64,000 nucleotides of DNA from a virus, in the IMG/VR virus record IMGVR_UViG_3300020420_000012, positions 17,636-81,635 of that record; one strand, 5' to 3'. The notes below the pieces were generated by a model. The model did not search any database. It saw only the letters and a program-made list of their open reading frames with translations, and was not told where the DNA came from. Both the position numbers and the translations under genes were made by a program. Of this stretch, positions 43,685-51,502 are shown one piece after another (position 1 is the first letter of the stretch; each line of letters opens with the position of its first letter).

Positions 43685-44682
43685 CAGTTTTTTTCACTTT
43701 TTTTTAATCCATATTTAATAACTTCTAACTCTTCTTCTGAATAGCCATACATAATATCATCATTGTCTTCATCTCTCCATTCATCAGTGTCTTCACCCTT
43801 ATGTATTAACGGGTCTATTGAATATCTTAGTTTAGGAAAGAATTCCGGAACGAGATCATCAAAGAATTTTTTACACTCGTCTAACCTGCCCGGCAAAAGC
43901 ATATACTCGATGTTAAACTTTCCGTCAACTTTTTCTCTGTAAATTTCTTCTATCTTATCTATTATCTTGCCGTGATTTGTAAATTCTTGATGAATGCTTA
44001 AACGAATTCCTCCAGCGTTTATAAGCTCTCTTAGCTTCGAAGCGTTGGCGGTACCGTTCGTGTTAGTGTGTACCTTATAACCAAAGCTGTTAACGTGTCT
44101 TACCATCTTCATATATTCTGGATTGATGGTTGGTTCACCGCCAGTAAATCGAAATGAAAGATCCTTACCCTTTGTTTGACTCACAATGTTATCGAAGCCT
44201 ATCTTAAATCTTTCGAAAGAGAGATGTGGACTAAAATTATCATGAACGTAACTCGGGCAATACGAGCAATCATAGTTACATCTTTTAGACATTATCCAGT
44301 TGATTCTAACGTGATTTTCTTTACCTCCCAAGTAACCAACTAAAGTTTTGATTTTTTCGTCCTTCAGTATTTCAACATTTTTTGTCTTTTGAAGATACTT
44401 AAAGTCTTTTTTTCTTTTCGACTTTAAGATATAGTGATCGGCACCACAATGGCACTTACTAACCGGACATCGTATCGGCTTGTCCGGCAGCTTGAATTCA
44501 GTAAAGATGTTACCTAACTCACCACCGTTAGCACAAACGCTTCCAAAGACTCTTCCGTCTCGTCTGACCGATAAAAAATTAAAACCAACACCACAGTACC
44601 AGTTTTGAAAAGAGTTACAGTTAACCTTGATGTAACTTGATCTTGTCCTTCTCAGACCATCTTCGGTGTCTACCATTATCAT
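43657..44682 (-). CDS. Radical SAM protein with an N-terminal SPASM/Twitch-like domain
   Basis: CNYDCSYC, FTGGEPT and TNG core motifs; N-terminal C...DG.V..C...LGNI...C...CHC. Confidence 0.85.
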   Translation of the reverse strand: MIMVDTEDGLRRTRSSYIKVNCNSFQNWYCGVGFNFLSVRRDGRVFGSVCANGGELGNIFTEFKLPDKPIRCPVSKCHCGADHYILKSKRKKDFKYLQKTKNVEILKDEKIKTLVGYLGGKENHVRINWIMSKRCNYDCSYCPSYVHDNFSPHLSFERFKIGFDNIVSQTKGKDLSFRFTGGEPTINPEYMKMVRHVNSFGYKVHTNTNGTANASKLRELINAGGIRLSIHQEFTNHGKIIDKIEEIYREKVDGKFNIEYMLLPGRLDECKKFFDDLVPEFFPKLRYSIDPLIHKGEDTDEWRDEDNDDIMYGYSEEELEVIKYGLKKSEKNCVHLRENSV

Positions 44683-44694
44683 TGAGCATCTCTT

Positions 44695-45381
44695 TTAGGA
44701 TTTTTTTTCAGAAGGATTTTTTTCACCGGTGATAAAGTCACGATCCGCGTAGATATCGTAGTAGTACTCCTCAGTGTCTCCGAGCCTGTACTCATTACCG
44801 TTCTCGACCTGATAGTATTCCGTACTCACCTTGAAGTCCGGCATCTTTGGTTCCTTCGGAGTCAGACTGTTATCGTATACTCGCATCCTATTGTTGGGGT
44901 ACAGAGCGAACTGCCCGTTCTCCAACTCTAACAAGTTAAAAGACTTGTGCTCATCCGGCTGTTCCGCTGTAGAGTAATCAACCTCGTCCGAATGTATATG
45001 GTAGTTATCCAAGGTGGCAATGTATGAACCCTTTACACGTCCGTGATTCTTTGTCCATACCTCGTAATCCATAGATCCAATGAACTGTTTCTGTATGCAT
45101 GTAACACCATAGTCCATACAGTTCCAAAACTGCAAGTCAGGCAATGCCATATCAACGTCCGGAGTCTCAGGAGAGGATACAAACGCGGATATCGGTAACT
45201 TATCGAACAAGGCACCGTACTCAGGTAGGAACGTTTCAAAATAGAAGGCGCGACCGGGGATAGACTTTGCTGTAACCCAGTGACCCTCGACGAACTCACC
45301 GTGTCCATCCTCGAGATCTCTGAGGTACTCACGGCGAACCCAAACTTTCTGATTGGGTATATTACAAATTAAATGCGACAT
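44695..45381 (-). CDS. Hypothetical phage protein
   Basis: VWVRREYL...SIPGRAFYFE...DKLPISAF...WNC...QPDEHKS...YPNNR. Confidence 0.7.
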   Translation of the reverse strand: MSHLICNIPNQKVWVRREYLRDLEDGHGEFVEGHWVTAKSIPGRAFYFETFLPEYGALFDKLPISAFVSSPETPDVDMALPDLQFWNCMDYGVTCIQKQFIGSMDYEVWTKNHGRVKGSYIATLDNYHIHSDEVDYSTAEQPDEHKSFNLLELENGQFALYPNNRMRVYDNSLTPKEPKMPDFKVSTEYYQVENGNEYRLGDTEEYYYDIYADRDFITGEKNPSEKKS

Positions 45382-45479
45382 AATACTATATATCTCTCGA
45401 AAAGGTTACGGGCCGAAATTTTTCCAGGAAAAAAAATTTTATAAAAGGTTTCTGTAAAAAAGTTCTGTGCTCTCTAATA

Positions 45480-45835
45480 CGCGAACCAAACTAGTGGCCT
45501 GTTACATGACTGTGCGATTCTGCCAATATAAACCCCTATACTGCTGACGTCACACAGATGATCACAGAGAGGTCCTTCGATATATGTGGTAGACTACATG
45601 CCTACCGTACTCGTTACGCCTCTCTGTGTGTATATGGGGGCCGTTGTCATGACATCCATCCTACCGACCTATCGGCCCCCTGGTAGGATGGGATACGTTT
45701 TATACTCCGACTCTGGTTCCCTGGGTAGTACCACACCTGTAAACCCCGATGACCTTCTGCTTCTGATATCTCACAACTTCTCCATCAGCCACCCTGTCGG
45801 TTACTATCGCTATGTCATTATATAGTACTCCCTTT
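45480..45835 (-). ncRNA. Candidate structured non-coding RNA
   Basis: Lies downstream of an early promoter, has no long ORF on that strand, is GC-rich and contains perfect 8-10 bp helices including a pseudoknot. Confidence 0.4.
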
Positions 45836-45851
45836 TTTTCTTTATATACTT

Positions 45852-45880
45852 ATTATACCACGGTTTCACAGCAATGTACA
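45852..45880 (-). promoter_or_regulatory. Phage early promoter
   Basis: TGTACA-N17-TATAAT with TGG extension and an A-tract. Confidence 0.75.
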
Positions 45881-46036
45881 CCTTTTTTTTCATTATTTGT
45901 GAACTTTTTTTTGGTATGAGAAAAAAATCTGCGGTCTGCTGCGGTCACTAAGGTATGCGACTGTGTGTACGTTTTGATTAGTTTTGAGATATCGCATGCA
46001 GAATGTGCACGATGTAAGTATCGCATATATAGTATT

Positions 46037-46165
46037 ATGAAGAGATTTATAAGAGATTTCCTATACTATTATAGGATGTTTGGACCACGCTATGGTTGGT
46101 TCTGGTCCATAGAATACAGTCGTTTTAACGCGATATACTTTAATAGAGACGGTACATGGAGGTAG
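46037..46165 (+). CDS. Small aromatic-rich protein (42 aa)
   Basis: MKRFIRDFLYYYRMFGPRYGWFWS...; start moved to ATG 46037. Confidence 0.4.
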   Translation: MKRFIRDFLYYYRMFGPRYGWFWSIEYSRFNAIYFNRDGTWR

Positions 46166-46338
46166 AGATGAACTCGACAGACTTTATTATCGTCCTTCTG
46201 ACCGCTGCCATGATCTATATAGGGTTTACTTTAATATGGATAGGTATGTATTGGGGTCTGCTTGTGATATTGTTTAACGTAAAAGTGTTTGATGTCTATT
46301 GTTTAAAGAGAAAGAATGATAATGATACAGCACGTTGA
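46156..46338 (+). CDS. Small membrane protein
   Basis: Two hydrophobic segments. Confidence 0.45.
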   Translation: MEVEMNSTDFIIVLLTAAMIYIGFTLIWIGMYWGLLVILFNVKVFDVYCLKRKNDNDTAR

Positions 46339-46837
46339 CTATGAGATCGATAAGAAGAAGTATCGAGACATCTTTTATGAGAACGTTAACAAGTACGGGC
46401 AGTGGCACTGGCTTTGTCCGAAGCGGCAGGAGTTGTTTTGGTATCAGATGTTTGTGAAAGATGATCATCCGCTCAAGCCGATGATACGTGAGGTTGAGCA
46501 CGATCTTAATATTGCATATATGAACAACTATCCGAGATTCAGTTACCAGTTTCCGAACACGAAGCTTGGACACCATCGCGACGAAGACGATATCGTATCG
46601 ATCAATATCAATCTCTTTGAGACGATTCCGATCATACACGTCGAGAATCATCCGTATCCGTACGAGTGTGCCTTGATCGACGTTGGTTCCTTGATGCACG
46701 GTGTCGAGCCTGACGCTAACCACAGACTGATACTCAAGTTTTGTTTAAGACACCCTTACGAGGAGGTGTACGAGAGACTGGACAAGTTTGGTCTCTTGAC
46801 AGAGGACTGTATCTACAGGACGTCGACTCTGAAGTAA
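46316..46837 (+). CDS. Fe(II)/2OG-type (DSBH) oxygenase
   Basis: HRD...SININL...CALID...HGV...RLILKF. Confidence 0.65.
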   Translation: MIMIQHVDYEIDKKKYRDIFYENVNKYGQWHWLCPKRQELFWYQMFVKDDHPLKPMIREVEHDLNIAYMNNYPRFSYQFPNTKLGHHRDEDDIVSININLFETIPIIHVENHPYPYECALIDVGSLMHGVEPDANHRLILKFCLRHPYEEVYERLDKFGLLTEDCIYRTSTLK

Positions 46838-50927: not shown

Positions 50928-51161
50928 CTATTTCTTTTCGCTTACATAAGCATAGAGTTCGTTAGCTCTCTTAACGATCTCTTCTGGCTTGTACATGTCA
51001 GGTACGTACTTATCATACGCTTCCTTAATATCTTTACCAGTTTCTTGATTTTCATCAATCATACGATGCATGAAATCCATCTGTAATTGAAATTGTTGGT
51101 CAGCCATCTCTTTGGCCATTCTTAAAGTTTCGAGTCTGATCTCGTATGGATTTTTAGACAT
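50928..51161 (-). CDS. Hypothetical phage protein
   Basis: MSKNPYEIRLETLRMAKEM...EEIVKRANELYAYV; GGAGGA Shine-Dalgarno. Confidence 0.65.
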   Translation of the reverse strand: MSKNPYEIRLETLRMAKEMADQQFQLQMDFMHRMIDENQETGKDIKEAYDKYVPDMYKPEEIVKRANELYAYVSEKK

Positions 51162-51184
51162 ATTGTCCTCCTGTGTGTTGTGTG

Positions 51185-51450
51185 TTGTGGAGAGATTCTG
51201 TTTCCACGCTCTCTCCGAGCGCATAGGAATTACGCTGCTTGAGCGAACTCCTGAGGTGCAAAATTATCGTTTGCATTTAGAGTTTTGTTCGCATTAACCG
51301 AGCTTACATCCGGATAACTCCACATCGCTATTGAACCTGTCGATCCTATTTCAGCCCCATCAAAACTACTCGATAATAGTGTTTTTGGTGGAGCTGCCGG
51401 GTACCGCCCCCGGGTCCAGCGAACCATTCGCTTTGCTTCATCGTTATATA
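51185..51450 (-). ncRNA. ssrA: Two-piece (circularly permuted) tmRNA
   Basis: Acceptor piece with T-arm CCGGG-GGCGGTA-CCCGG and CAGCTCCACCA ending at 51386; spacer; coding piece starting GGGGCTGAAATAGGATCGAC at 51358; G3-U70 alanine identity pair; tag ANDNFAPQEFAQAA* at 51274-51230. Outer boundaries approximate. Confidence 0.93.
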
Positions 51451-51456
51451 GTATAT

Positions 51457-51485
51457 ATTATACCATAAAAATTAACATTTGTACA
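51457..51485 (-). promoter_or_regulatory. Phage early promoter for tmRNA
   Basis: TGTACA-N17-TATAAT. Confidence 0.75.
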
Positions 51486-51494
51486 CCTTTTTTT

Positions 51495-51502
51495 TATAAA
51501 TA
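51495..51502 (+). promoter_or_regulatory. T4-type late promoter TATAAATA
   Basis: Exact match upstream of the 51525 ORF, back-to-back with the tmRNA promoter. Confidence 0.7.

What the first reader, a model, noticed from the sequence alone, without database searches (positions are those of the whole stretch)
45480..45880. Promoter-driven, GC-rich non-coding RNA candidate with an H-type pseudoknot
Seen: a consensus early promoter and a GGGAG Shine-Dalgarno lead only to ATG-ACA-TAG. Downstream are two crossing perfect helices (45636-45643 with 45673-45680, 8 bp; 45656-45665 with 45682-45691, 10 bp). A 10-bp helix (45563-45572 with 45619-45628) encloses a 7-bp hairpin (45588-45606) that pairs fully only on the minus strand through a G-U pair, and CACACAGA at 45551-45558 offers an alternative partner. 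I do not recognise it as a known family. Inference: an undescribed phage ncRNA (regulatory, protein decoy or replication primer).
Basis: partly seen in the sequence, partly recalled or inferred. Interest (0 to 1): 0.72.

Follow-up and report, generated by a model that had tools for sequence, protein, structure and literature searches.

The report
New double-pseudoknot RNA of ocean phages
The flagged stretch is a real, intricately folded RNA that many uncultured T4-like ocean phages place, with its own strong promoter and a tiny two-codon gene, at the very start of early operons; it matches no catalogued RNA family and its function is still unknown.

Summary
Observation confirmed. The RNA reads on the minus strand. 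Its conserved core runs from about 45845 to 45636.

I collected 67 distinct relatives from 128 marine virome and metagenome loci. In the model-guided alignment 95.7% of cells pair, against 33-56% when partners are slid. 22 of 35 pairs change on both sides. The extra helix pairs in 98.2% of cells.

Rfam 15 gives nothing. INPHARED phages give nothing. No protein frame is conserved: stops in every frame in clades 1 and 3, and pN/pS 0.81 in clade 2.

The mini-ORF with its SD is kept in 67 of 67 members, and its stop lies 5-10 nt before P1. A co-directional gene follows in 64 of 64 contexts, from at least 7 families.

Marine RNA-seq contigs cover exactly 45636-45828.

The part 45480-45630 is an extension seen in only 6 sequences.

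Best guess (about 0.35-0.4): a ribosome-gated early-operon leader. Main rival: a stable trans-acting RNA.

The parts
45852..45880 (-). Sigma-70-type early promoter: -35 TGTACA (45880-45875), 17-nt spacer, extended -10 TGgTATAAT (TG 45860-45859, TATAAT 45857-45852). Inferred start near 45845.
   Evidence: 10 of 12, TG present. The same module scores 9/12 or better with 17-nt spacing in 64 of 67 relatives. The start site is inferred, not mapped.
45828..45832 (-). Shine-Dalgarno GGGAG, 9 nt upstream of the mini-ORF AUG.
   Evidence: An SD-like 4-mer lies at -18 to -4 in 67 of 67 members, with differing sequences (GGGAG, GGAG, GAGG, AAGGA), against 18% of random 15-mers from the same loci. RNA-library contigs of two studies both stop at 45828 (weak hint only).
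45810..45818 (-). Mini-ORF AUG-ACA-UAG (Met-Thr-stop). The stop lies 9 nt before P1.
   Evidence: 58 of 67 members have AUG ACA UAG. The rest have AUG ACU UAG (1), AUG UUG UAG (1), AUG UUA UAG (1), AUG GAU UAC GGA UAG (2), AUG CGG CGA UAA (2) or AUG CGG CAA UAA (2). The stop-to-P1 distance is 5, 9 or 10 nt in all 67.
45636..45845 (-). Conserved core RNA (about 210 nt from the inferred start; 193 nt in the RNA-library contig 45636-45828).
   Evidence: Covariance model R1 scores 211 bits at 45613-45840(-), the only match in the window and in the whole 81.6-kb record. An exact 193-nt contig lies at 45636-45828 in run X1 and a 153-nt contig at 45676-45828 in X3.
45796..45800 (-). P1 5' strand CCGAC; pairs with 45707-45711.
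   Evidence: helix 1: 97.3% paired, 3 of 5 pairs changed on both sides (CCGAC/GUCGG, CCACC/GGUGG, CGGUC/GACCG).
45707..45711 (-). P1 3' strand GUCGG.
   Evidence: helix 1.
45748..45793 (-). P2: GGUGGCU (45793-45787) pairs with GGUCAUC (45754-45748). It encloses an invariant purine-rich internal loop (GAUGGA / AGAA) and a variable distal part.
   Evidence: helix 2: 95.9% paired, 6 of 7 pairs changed on both sides. One extra covarying pair inside the loop (alignment A3 columns 69-107: GC 27, CG 19, AU 18).
45715..45745 (-). P3 (GGUUU 45745-45741 with GAACC 45719-45715), with invariant internal loop ACA/CAGG, and hairpin P3a (GGUG 45737-45734, loop UGGUAC 45733-45728, UACC 45727-45724).
   Evidence: helices 3 and 4: P3 is 100% paired, with one pair GC 31 / AU 36. 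P3a is 97% paired.
45692..45696 (-). Linker GUAUC, which pairs with the P3a loop GGUAC (45732-45728). This is a second pseudoknot, directly abutting S1.
   Evidence: 98.2% paired against 53% or less when slid. Pair 136-173 is AU 42 / UA 19. Pair 137-172 is AU 59 / UA 4 / GU 4. 0 of 500 shuffles reach the covariation score.
45656..45691 (-). S1 of the H-type pseudoknot: CCAUCCUACC (45691-45682) with GGUAGGAUGG (45665-45656). Its loop carries the S2 5' strand GGGGGCCG (45680-45673).
   Evidence: Helix 5 (outer 7 pairs): 96% paired, 6 of 7 pairs changed on both sides.
45636..45643 (-). S2 3' strand CGGCCCCC; pairs with 45673-45680 across S1.
   Evidence: helix 6: 90.4% paired, 5 of 7 pairs changed on both sides. 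The unpaired cells are mostly the L099-type and clade-3 rows, which the model aligned 1-3 columns off. By eye these form GGAGGGG/CCCCUCC and GAGGCGG/CCGCCUC.
45510..45628 (-). Subclade-specific 3' extension: hairpin H1 (10-bp base 45563-45572 with 45619-45628) and a second stem (about 45550-45557 with 45510-45517).
   Evidence: Shared only with L003, L088, L148, L189 and L208. RNAalifold on 5 sequences gives 50 pairs, 9 with a compensatory change. L148 carries the H1 module twice.
44695..45381 (-). Downstream co-directional gene (228 aa, PHROG 3704; no Pfam family).
   Evidence: At least 599 relatives in IMG/VR, but only this subclade has the RNA in front of it: 1 of 80 loci by blastn and 0 of 12 by the covariance model.

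Best explanation
What it is (about 0.95): a member of an uncatalogued family of complex-folded RNAs of uncultured marine T4-like phages. A strong early sigma-70 promoter drives it. It forms the first roughly 200 nt of an early operon transcript.

Layout from 5' to 3':
- an A-rich leader;
- a Shine-Dalgarno site and a 2-5-codon mini-ORF;
- a three-way junction (P1, P2 with an invariant purine-rich loop, P3/P3a);
- a 5-bp pseudoknot between the P3a loop and the linker;
- an H-type pseudoknot (S1/S2) stacked directly on that linker.

How it most likely works (about 0.35-0.4; inferred, not shown): it is a cis-acting, ribosome-gated leader. A ribosome loads on the strong 5' site and translates the mini-ORF. 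It terminates with its leading edge on the 5' strand of P1, which starts 5-10 nt after the stop. While a ribosome sits there the double-pseudoknot fold cannot close. When none is there the RNA snaps into a compact, nuclease-resistant fold. The balance would report the cell's translational state, or a still unknown ligand or protein bound by the invariant junctions. It would set the stability or expression of whatever early genes lie behind it.
For: Shown:
- One family, 67 distinct sequences from 128 loci.
- Fold supported by covariation: 95.7% of cells paired against 33-56% slid; 22 of 35 pairs changed on both sides; 0 of 500 shuffles reach it. The extra pseudoknot pairs in 98.2% of cells.
- G-U pairs fit only the minus strand.
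- No Rfam match.
- Promoter in 64 of 67 members.
- SD and mini-ORF in 67 of 67. The SD and the codons change while the feature and the 5-10-nt stop-to-P1 spacing stay.
- A co-directional ORF follows in 64 of 64 contexts, from at least 7 unrelated families.
- No terminator-like site follows the pseudoknot in the window.
- A variant RNA-library contig runs from the RNA into the SD and AUG of the next gene.
- One copy per phage record in 5 of 5 records.

Precedent: the two-codon AUG-AAA-UAG minigene in the E. coli LEE1 leader. Its translation and position control the next gene (PMC3262186, abstract read).
Against: - No expression platform is visible. The pseudoknot ends about 9-20 nt before the next SD and does not overlap it. 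No terminator or anti-terminator pair is seen.
- The downstream genes are functionally unrelated, so no ligand can be guessed.
- In clade 3 (L163, L169, L214, L223) a separate TTGACA-17-TACTAT promoter lies between the RNA and the next gene. Three of the clade-3 rows in the alignment lack an own promoter upstream. The RNA can therefore be uncoupled from the gene behind it.
- An exact 193-nt RNA-library contig ends at the last pseudoknot base. That fits a discrete stable RNA as well as a leader fragment.
- Translation of the mini-ORF has not been shown.
- Thirty clade-2 members also carry a long ORF through the element, which complicates a simple mini-ORF gate.
Confidence: 0.38

Rival explanations
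1. A stable, trans-acting early non-coding RNA. It would be released from the 5' end of the early transcript by processing, or by 3' trimming back to the pseudoknot. It would bind or titrate a host or phage factor such as the ribosome or a release factor, a nuclease, or an RNA-binding protein docking on the invariant purine-rich loop. The 5' ribosome-binding site would serve mainly as a stabiliser.
For: - The module (promoter plus RNA) is kept nearly unchanged in front of at least 7 unrelated genes. In clade 3 the next gene has its own promoter.
- The invariant core is far more conserved than its flanks.
- An exact RNA-library contig spans 45636-45828 and stops at the last base of S2. A second study's contig stops at the same 5' place.
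- 17 RNA-labelled runs from 16 studies hold part of the stretch.
Against: - Logan contigs cannot prove RNA ends, strand or abundance. Run X2 has a contig crossing the pseudoknot end (45561-45711), and a variant contig reads on into the next gene.
- No terminator follows the RNA.
- A gene always follows on the same strand (64 of 64). That is not required of a free RNA gene.
- No partner protein gene is linked to it.
Confidence: 0.33
2. A self-processing ribozyme, or a metabolite-dependent one as glmS is. It would cut at or near a boundary of the fold and so set the 5' end, and the fate, of the downstream early mRNA.
For: - The complexity is of ribozyme grade: 7 helices, 2 pseudoknots and many invariant unpaired bases in about 190 nt.
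- It sits in front of mRNAs.
- RNA-library contig ends coincide with the 3' edge of the fold (45636) and with 45828 (weak hint).
Against: - No Rfam ribozyme model matches even at E<=10.
- The 45828 end lies in the non-conserved SD region, not at an edge of conservation.
- Contigs that cross 45636 exist.
- Contig ends are not molecule ends.
Confidence: 0.08
3. A bar-like toxic minigene device. The highly expressed two-codon ORF would cause peptidyl-tRNA drop-off or tie up release factor and ribosomes. The structure abutting the stop codon would enhance the effect and contribute to host shut-off.
For: - Strong promoter, strong SD, AUG, one codon and a stop are kept in 67 of 67 members.
- The structure starts 5-10 nt after the stop, the spacing at which downstream structures act on a ribosome in decoding. 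The spacing rule is from general knowledge of recoding signals (recalled).
- Lambda bar minigenes are recalled, not read. Minigene literature was seen only as a search listing.
Against: - The second codon is not fixed (ACA, ACU, UUG, UUA, GAU, CGG), so no single tRNA is targeted.
- Some members have 3-5 codons.
- The elaborate, invariant fold 100-200 nt downstream has no role in this model.
- No toxicity data exist.
Confidence: 0.05
4. A small protein-coding gene: the 79-85-codon ORF seen in clade 2, or the 79-aa plus-strand ORF in the window.
For: - 30 of 67 distinct sequences (30 of 36 clade-2 members) keep an ORF from an AUG close to the inferred transcript start, through the whole element, to a TAG overlapping the next gene's ATG.
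- Length variants among them differ by multiples of three.
Against: - Stops in all three sense frames in clade 1 (the window included) and clade 3. L112 and L117 read the invariant core in another frame.
- Pooled pN/pS is 0.81. Variable sites by codon position are 42/47/47, so there is no third-position excess.
- Substitutions are compensatory in the helices.
- The window's plus-strand 79-aa ORF has no Pfam match, and the G-U pairs fit the minus strand.
- What cannot be excluded is that ribosomes read through the element in clade 2 without the peptide mattering.
Confidence: 0.03

Closest known systems
Two-codon minigene in the E. coli LEE1 (ler) leader, AUG-AAA-UAG (PMC3262186, abstract read)
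   Same: SD-driven AUG, one codon and UAG inside a long 5' leader. Translation and exact placement of the mini-ORF affect the downstream gene.
   Different: No conserved complex fold is attached to it. It is a bacterial chromosomal leader, not a phage module found before many different genes.
Lambda bar minigenes
   Same: A phage-encoded two-codon ORF with an SD-like site, expressed from an early promoter.
   Different: bar has no associated conserved tertiary structure. Its effect is known from Pth-deficient hosts. Here the second codon varies and nothing has been tested.
Large pseudoknotted riboswitch and ribozyme leaders (glmS RF00234, cobalamin RF00174, SAM-I and similar; names and accessions recalled)
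   Same: A 5'-leader position, multi-helix junction, pseudoknots and many invariant unpaired nucleotides.
   Different: No Rfam model matches. No expression platform is seen. There is no coherent downstream gene function. A translated-looking mini-ORF sits upstream of the fold rather than a platform downstream of it.
H-type pseudoknot recoding signals (frameshift or readthrough stimulators; general knowledge)
   Same: A stable structure begins 5-10 nt after the codon in the A site. S1/S2 has classical H-type topology.
   Different: The structure next to the stop is the three-way junction, not the H-type knot. The ORF is only 2-5 codons. No slippery site is present and no extended frame is conserved.
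Candidate structured RNAs mined from IMG/VR (DNAVirus_N set, PMC10690425; main-text passages read, supplements closed)
   Same: Same data source (IMG/VR intergenic regions) and the same kind of object. That paper also notes leaders near gp32.
   Different: Their models are 29-151 nt. Whether any covers part of this roughly 200-nt family cannot be checked here. No function or architecture like this one is described in the passages read.
manA and wcaG RNA motifs of T4-like cyanophages (PMC2864571, passages read; both in Rfam)
   Same: Structured 5'-UTR motifs found almost only in marine sequences and in T4-like phages.
   Different: Different sequence and fold. cmscan finds neither here.

Membership tests
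Any Rfam 15 family (4227 models) | Score at or above the family's gathering threshold, or at least a consistent weak match across homologues | tested here: not met
   Window at gathering: only the tmRNA at 51186-51502. 45300-46200 at E<=10: three chance-level miRNA/snoRNA rows. Six homologous loci at E<=10: no row on the element.
Riboswitch (as a class) | Conserved, covarying aptamer-like fold in a 5' UTR | tested here: met
   fold; promoter upstream, gene downstream on the same strand in 64 of 64.
Riboswitch (as a class) | Expression platform: terminator/antiterminator or SD-sequestering alternative pairing | tested here: inconclusive
   No terminator-like site. The downstream SD lies about 9-12 nt beyond S2 and is not paired in the consensus. 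No conserved alternative helix was found in a column-pair scan.
Riboswitch (as a class) | Association with genes of one pathway; a ligand | tested here: not met
   At least 7 unrelated downstream families, mostly of unknown function. Ligand binding is not testable with these tools.
Protein-coding gene | One reading frame open and under purifying selection across relatives | tested here: not met
   37 of 67 lack any full-length frame. pN/pS is 0.81. Codon-position counts are 42/47/47.
tRNA / tmRNA | tRNA-like acceptor/T-arm domain recognised by ARAGORN or Rfam | tested here: not met
   ARAGORN finds only the tmRNA at 51139-51482. Rfam agrees.
Programmed recoding signal (-1 frameshift, readthrough, bypass) | A long upstream ORF, a slippery or take-off site, and a conserved extended frame beyond the stop | tested here: not met
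   The ORF is 2-5 codons. Frames after the stop are closed in many members (window: UGA after 9 further codons; L003: UGA soon after).
bar-like minigene | SD, AUG, one or few codons and a stop, transcribed from a phage early promoter | tested here: met
   67 of 67; promoter in 64 of 67.
bar-like minigene | Toxicity through peptidyl-tRNA drop-off | not testable with these tools
   Needs expression in a Pth-limited laboratory strain.
Small self-cleaving ribozymes / glmS | Match to the family model; site-specific self-cleavage | tested here: not met
   No Rfam ribozyme row at E<=10. Cleavage itself is not testable here.

The most novel reading that the evidence does not exclude
A new class of ribosome-docking phage RNA. 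An early, highly expressed transcript would use a start-stop minigene to park a terminating ribosome against a double-pseudoknot fold. That would either sense the host's translational capacity and gate a whole early operon, or trap ribosomes or release factor as part of host take-over. This architecture has no described counterpart in the libraries and searches used here (Rfam 15; papers).
Probability: 0.25. Interest if true: 0.85.

Novelty: new variant of a known kind. Interest (0 to 1): 0.7.

Why it matters
Complex-folded RNAs with two pseudoknots and dozens of invariant bases are rare. When they have been studied they have usually turned out to be riboswitches, ribozymes or ribonucleoprotein cores.

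This one is widespread in ocean viromes. It occurs in 58 IMG/VR contigs and 79 metagenome contigs, and parts of it are held by 17 RNA-labelled runs. It sits at the head of early, host-take-over operons of T4-like phages that probably infect abundant marine heterotrophs. It also couples the fold to a conserved two-codon ORF, an arrangement not catalogued so far.

It is short (about 200 nt), it has a rich alignment, and it can be tested directly by probing, toeprinting and reporter fusions. That makes it a good entry point into how uncultured marine phages regulate early infection.

Tried and rejected
Known RNA families. Rfam at gathering score and at E<=10 on the window, the region and 6 homologous loci gave nothing. 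ARAGORN found no tRNA-like gene here.

Cultured phages. blastn in 'distant' mode of three clade representatives against INPHARED gave no match.

Prokaryote genomes. One pattern hit (L224, a 25-kb contig of a Balneola MAG) has the same phage-type neighbour gene as L112. I read it as a mis-binned phage contig. A host origin was not tested further.

Coding. Rejected as a conserved protein.

Obligatory leader of the 228-aa gene. Rejected: 1 of 80 loci by blastn and 0 of 12 by the covariance model.

GGGAAC/GUUCCC hairpin. The C-to-U change there is only G-C to G-U. P3 shows a true G-C to A-U exchange (31/36), and the GUUCC linker is better explained by pairing with the P3a loop.

Mini-ORF (ACAU) pairing with the AUGU of the S1-S2 linker. 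Seen in the window, not kept in L106 or clade 3. Dropped.

Resemblances considered from memory only and dropped, because Rfam did not match or the topology differs: group I intron core, HDV-like fold, FMN riboswitch 3' segment, TPP, glycine, k-turn, 11-nt tetraloop receptor, CsrA sites. None of these is a test.

Column-pair scan for further helices. Mostly phylogenetic noise. Only the pair 69-107 was kept.

RNA-library lay. In X1 and X3 the flanking genes show no cover. The contigs cannot show strand, ends or level.

Dropped rows. Fifteen of the 39 new loci from the loose pattern were chance matches and were dropped after nhmmer. Truncated copies (L085, L097, L101, L104 and others at contig ends) were left out of the 67-row alignment.

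Papers.
- PMC10690425: passages read. Its supplements, which may hold a model overlapping this family, are closed.
- PMC2864571: passages read.
- PMC3262186: abstract and outline read.
- All others: search listings only.
- That the family is not in print rests on those three searches and on Rfam, and is therefore provisional.
Full report
WHERE AND WHAT. The window is part of an 81.6-kb IMG/VR virus record, estimated 39% complete. It is T4-like. It carries an alphaproteobacterial-type permuted tmRNA at 51139-51482(-). In related contigs the element lies near gp33-like and gp32 (SSB) genes.

The flagged stretch lies in a 770-bp gap. On one side is a minus-strand 228-aa gene (44695-45381; PHROG 3704, no Pfam). 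On the other side are plus-strand genes starting at 46156. G+C rises to 50-53% at 45500-45800, against about 35% around it.

OBSERVATION.
- Promoter: TGTACA, 17 nt, TGgTATAAT on the minus strand.
- GGGAG at 45832-45828.
- ATG-ACA-TAG at 45818-45810.
- Two crossing helices, 45636-45643/45673-45680 and 45656-45665/45682-45691.
- The 10-bp helix 45563-45572/45619-45628.
- The 7-bp hairpin, whose sixth pair is G-U only on the minus strand.

The minus strand folds better than shuffles (z -2.55). The plus strand does not (z -1.23).

RELATIVES. The neighbouring 228-aa protein has at least 599 relatives in IMG/VR. Only 1 of the 80 fetched loci (L003) has the RNA upstream of it.

Four sequence patterns taken from the conserved core found more copies.
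- IMG/VR scans gave 14, 23 and 58 stretches. For the last, looser pattern, 24 of the 39 new loci were confirmed by nhmmer and 15 were chance.
- The metagenome scan gave 79 contigs.
- The GTDB genome scan gave 1 contig.
- The final pattern gave 58 IMG/VR contigs.

nhmmer matched 128 of 222 loci held at that point, including 80 of 80 loci. After removing duplicates and truncated copies, 67 distinct full-length sequences remained.

A covariance model built from them (R1) gave these results.
- Exactly one copy in each of the 67 sources, the whole window included.
- One copy per record in 5 of 5 phage records.
- A match in 11 of 11 further IMG/VR loci and in L224.
- No match in 12 loci that share only the 228-aa gene.

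Three blastn searches of cultured-phage genomes found nothing. All source samples named in the contig and run tables are marine.

EXTENT. The alignments show that the shared unit starts at the promoter and ends with the 3' strand of S2 (window 45636). Beyond that point the sequence depends on context.
- In most relatives an SD and the ATG of a small membrane protein follow within about 20 nt.
- In the window and five relatives (L003, L088, L148, L189, L208) a further roughly 240-330 nt of structured RNA comes first.
- The inner 7-bp hairpin and the CACACAGA alternative partner are not conserved.
- L148 has the hairpin module duplicated.

STRUCTURE. On the model-guided alignment A3 (67 rows) I counted six helices.
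- P1: CCGAC/GUCGG, also seen as CCACC/GGUGG and CGGUC/GACCG.
- P2: 7 bp, 6 pairs with changes on both sides.
- P3: one pair is G-C in 31 rows and A-U in 36.
- P3a.
- S1: outer 7 pairs, 6 with changes on both sides.
- S2: 5 of 7 pairs with changes on both sides.

Overall 95.7% of 2327 cells form standard pairs, against 33-56% when the 3' partners are slid by 1-3 columns. 22 of 35 pairs change on both sides. 0 of 500 shuffles reach the paired fraction or the covariation score. Because the alignment was fitted to a model that holds P1-P3a and S1, those counts lean towards the structure. S2 was not in the model. The raw MAFFT alignment already showed the same exchanges.

I then noticed that the P3a loop (NGGNNC) and the linker just 5' of S1 change together: GGAAC with GUUCC, GGAUC with GAUCC, GGUAC with GUAUC. 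Counting that 5-bp helix gives 98.2% paired, against 53% or less when slid. Two pairs exchange on both sides.

The RNA is therefore a double pseudoknot. The loop-linker helix abuts S1 and can stack on it.

An invariant asymmetric purine-rich loop (GAUGGA/AGAA) sits in P2. It is closed by one further covarying pair (G-C 27, C-G 19, A-U 18). Fifty-five alignment columns are invariant, many of them unpaired.

NOT A PROTEIN. In clade 1 (the window included) and clade 3 all three sense frames carry stops inside the element.

Thirty of 67 sequences, all in clade 2, keep a 79-85-codon frame. It runs from an AUG very close to the inferred transcript start to a TAG overlapping the next ATG. Two results argue against a conserved protein.
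- Pooled pN/pS is 0.81, and variable sites fall 42/47/47 on codon positions 1, 2 and 3.
- Two other clade-2 members read the invariant core in a different frame.

Whether ribosomes read through the element in clade 2 remains open.

THE MINI-ORF. All 67 members have an SD-like 4-mer 4-18 nt before an AUG, against 18% of random 15-mers from the same loci. The AUG is followed by 1-4 sense codons and a stop that lies 5, 9 or 10 nt before P1.

The SD differs in sequence and register between clades. The codons differ as well: ACA in 58; ACU, UUG and UUA in 1 each; GAU UAC GGA in 2; CGG CGA in 2; CGG CAA in 2. The stop is UAG or UAA.

A feature kept while its letters change is most simply explained by function in translation. 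That is an inference.

With the stop in the A site, the front of the ribosome would reach the 5' strand of P1. This follows from the known ribosome footprint, which is recalled general knowledge.

CONTEXT. 64 of 67 members have a promoter match of 9/12 or better with 17-nt spacing just upstream. The exceptions are three clade-3 rows.

In 64 of 64 distinct contexts with enough sequence a co-directional ORF follows.
- A 61-87-aa membrane protein in 41.
- Six or more other families in the rest, mostly of unknown function.

In clade 3 a second consensus promoter lies between the RNA and the next gene.

EXPRESSION. 17 RNA-labelled public runs from 16 studies hold part of the stretch. All are Logan contigs.

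I laid four of them on 44600-46500.
- X1 has a 193-nt contig identical to 45636-45828.
- X3 (another study) has a 153-nt contig identical to 45676-45828.
- X2 has an identical contig at 45561-45711 that crosses the end of the pseudoknot.
- A variant contig in X1 continues into the SD and AUG of the membrane-protein gene.

By the tool's own caveats these show presence in RNA libraries and some bridging. They do not show ends, strand or abundance. Two studies stopping at 45828 is a weak hint only.

WHAT IT IS AND HOW IT MAY WORK. Established: an uncatalogued, covariation-supported, double-pseudoknotted RNA family. It heads early operons of uncultured marine T4-like phages and has an attached SD and mini-ORF.

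Inferred best mechanism (about 0.35-0.4): a ribosome-gated cis leader. Occupancy of the mini-ORF and folding of P1 and the knots exclude each other. The outcome would set the stability or expression of the genes behind. The LEE1 two-codon minigene is a precedent for the mini-ORF part (PMC3262186, abstract).

Main rival (about 0.33): a stable trans-acting RNA released from the transcript.

Minor rivals: a ribozyme (0.08), a bar-like minigene device (0.05) and a protein (0.03).

Against my preferred reading:
- no expression platform is visible;
- the downstream genes are unrelated;
- clade 3 uncouples the RNA from the next gene.

NOVELTY. No Rfam 15 family matches. Three full-text searches found no description. 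A 2023 survey of IMG/VR intergenic regions lists 8,495 unnamed candidates of 29-151 nt (PMC10690425, passages read). A fragment of this family may be among them.

An earlier first-stage note of this scan (e1-5618158) describes a relative in another genome. It had no follow-up.

Noticed in passing
window 51139-51482 (-): Phage-encoded permuted (two-piece) tmRNA of alphaproteobacterial type, tag ANDNFAPQEFAQAA (Rfam alpha_tmRNA 133 bits; ARAGORN). It hints at an alphaproteobacterial host.
   Followed up: no
L129:9572-9823 and 29 other clade-2 loci: A 79-85-codon ORF runs from an AUG a few nt after the inferred transcript start, through the whole RNA, to a TAG overlapping the next gene's ATG (ATGCCTAG). 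It is kept in 30 of 36 clade-2 members, and length variants differ by multiples of 3. Yet pN/pS is 0.81 and there is no codon periodicity. It may be a read-through 'unfolding' frame rather than a protein.
   Followed up: partly
L148:4272-4530: The hairpin module of the window-type 3' extension (equivalent to window 45563-45628 plus flanks) is present twice in tandem.
   Followed up: no
window 45755-45786 (-); alignment A3 columns 63-111: An invariant asymmetric purine-rich internal loop (GAUGGA opposite AGAA) in P2, closed by a pair that covaries three ways. It looks like a k-turn, a loop-E-like motif or a protein-docking motif. The comparison is by recall only.
   Followed up: partly
L084, L086, L089, L099 and others, about 60-90 nt upstream of the RNA's -35 box: A conserved near-palindrome (TTAATATGTTAA) followed by CACTTTTTTT precedes the promoter in many clade-1 and clade-2 loci. 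It may be the terminator of the upstream unit or an operator.
   Followed up: no
L224 (PCAT01000110.1, Balneola sp. MAG, 25 kb): The only prokaryote-genome hit. It carries the RNA with the same phage-type downstream gene (MKILKAIK...) as viral contigs L112 and L117. It is probably a phage contig binned into the MAG.
   Followed up: partly
window 45900-46160: The rest of the divergent intergenic region is about 90% identical to L003. It holds a GGACCA...TGGTCC hairpin and promoter-like boxes for the plus-strand genes. The 66-aa plus-strand ORF at 45965-46165 has no Pfam match.
   Followed up: no
L163, L169, L214, L223 (clade 3), just 3' of the pseudoknot: A GCCAAAC-T7-GGC hairpin is followed by a consensus TTGACA-17-TACTAT promoter for the next gene. 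Here the RNA seems to be a separate transcription unit, and three of these loci lack an own promoter upstream of it.
   Followed up: partly
L157:1134-1377 (-) and about 120 nt downstream: This variant has an enlarged P2 and another GC-rich, apparently structured stretch after the pseudoknot. That stretch differs from the window's extension.
   Followed up: no
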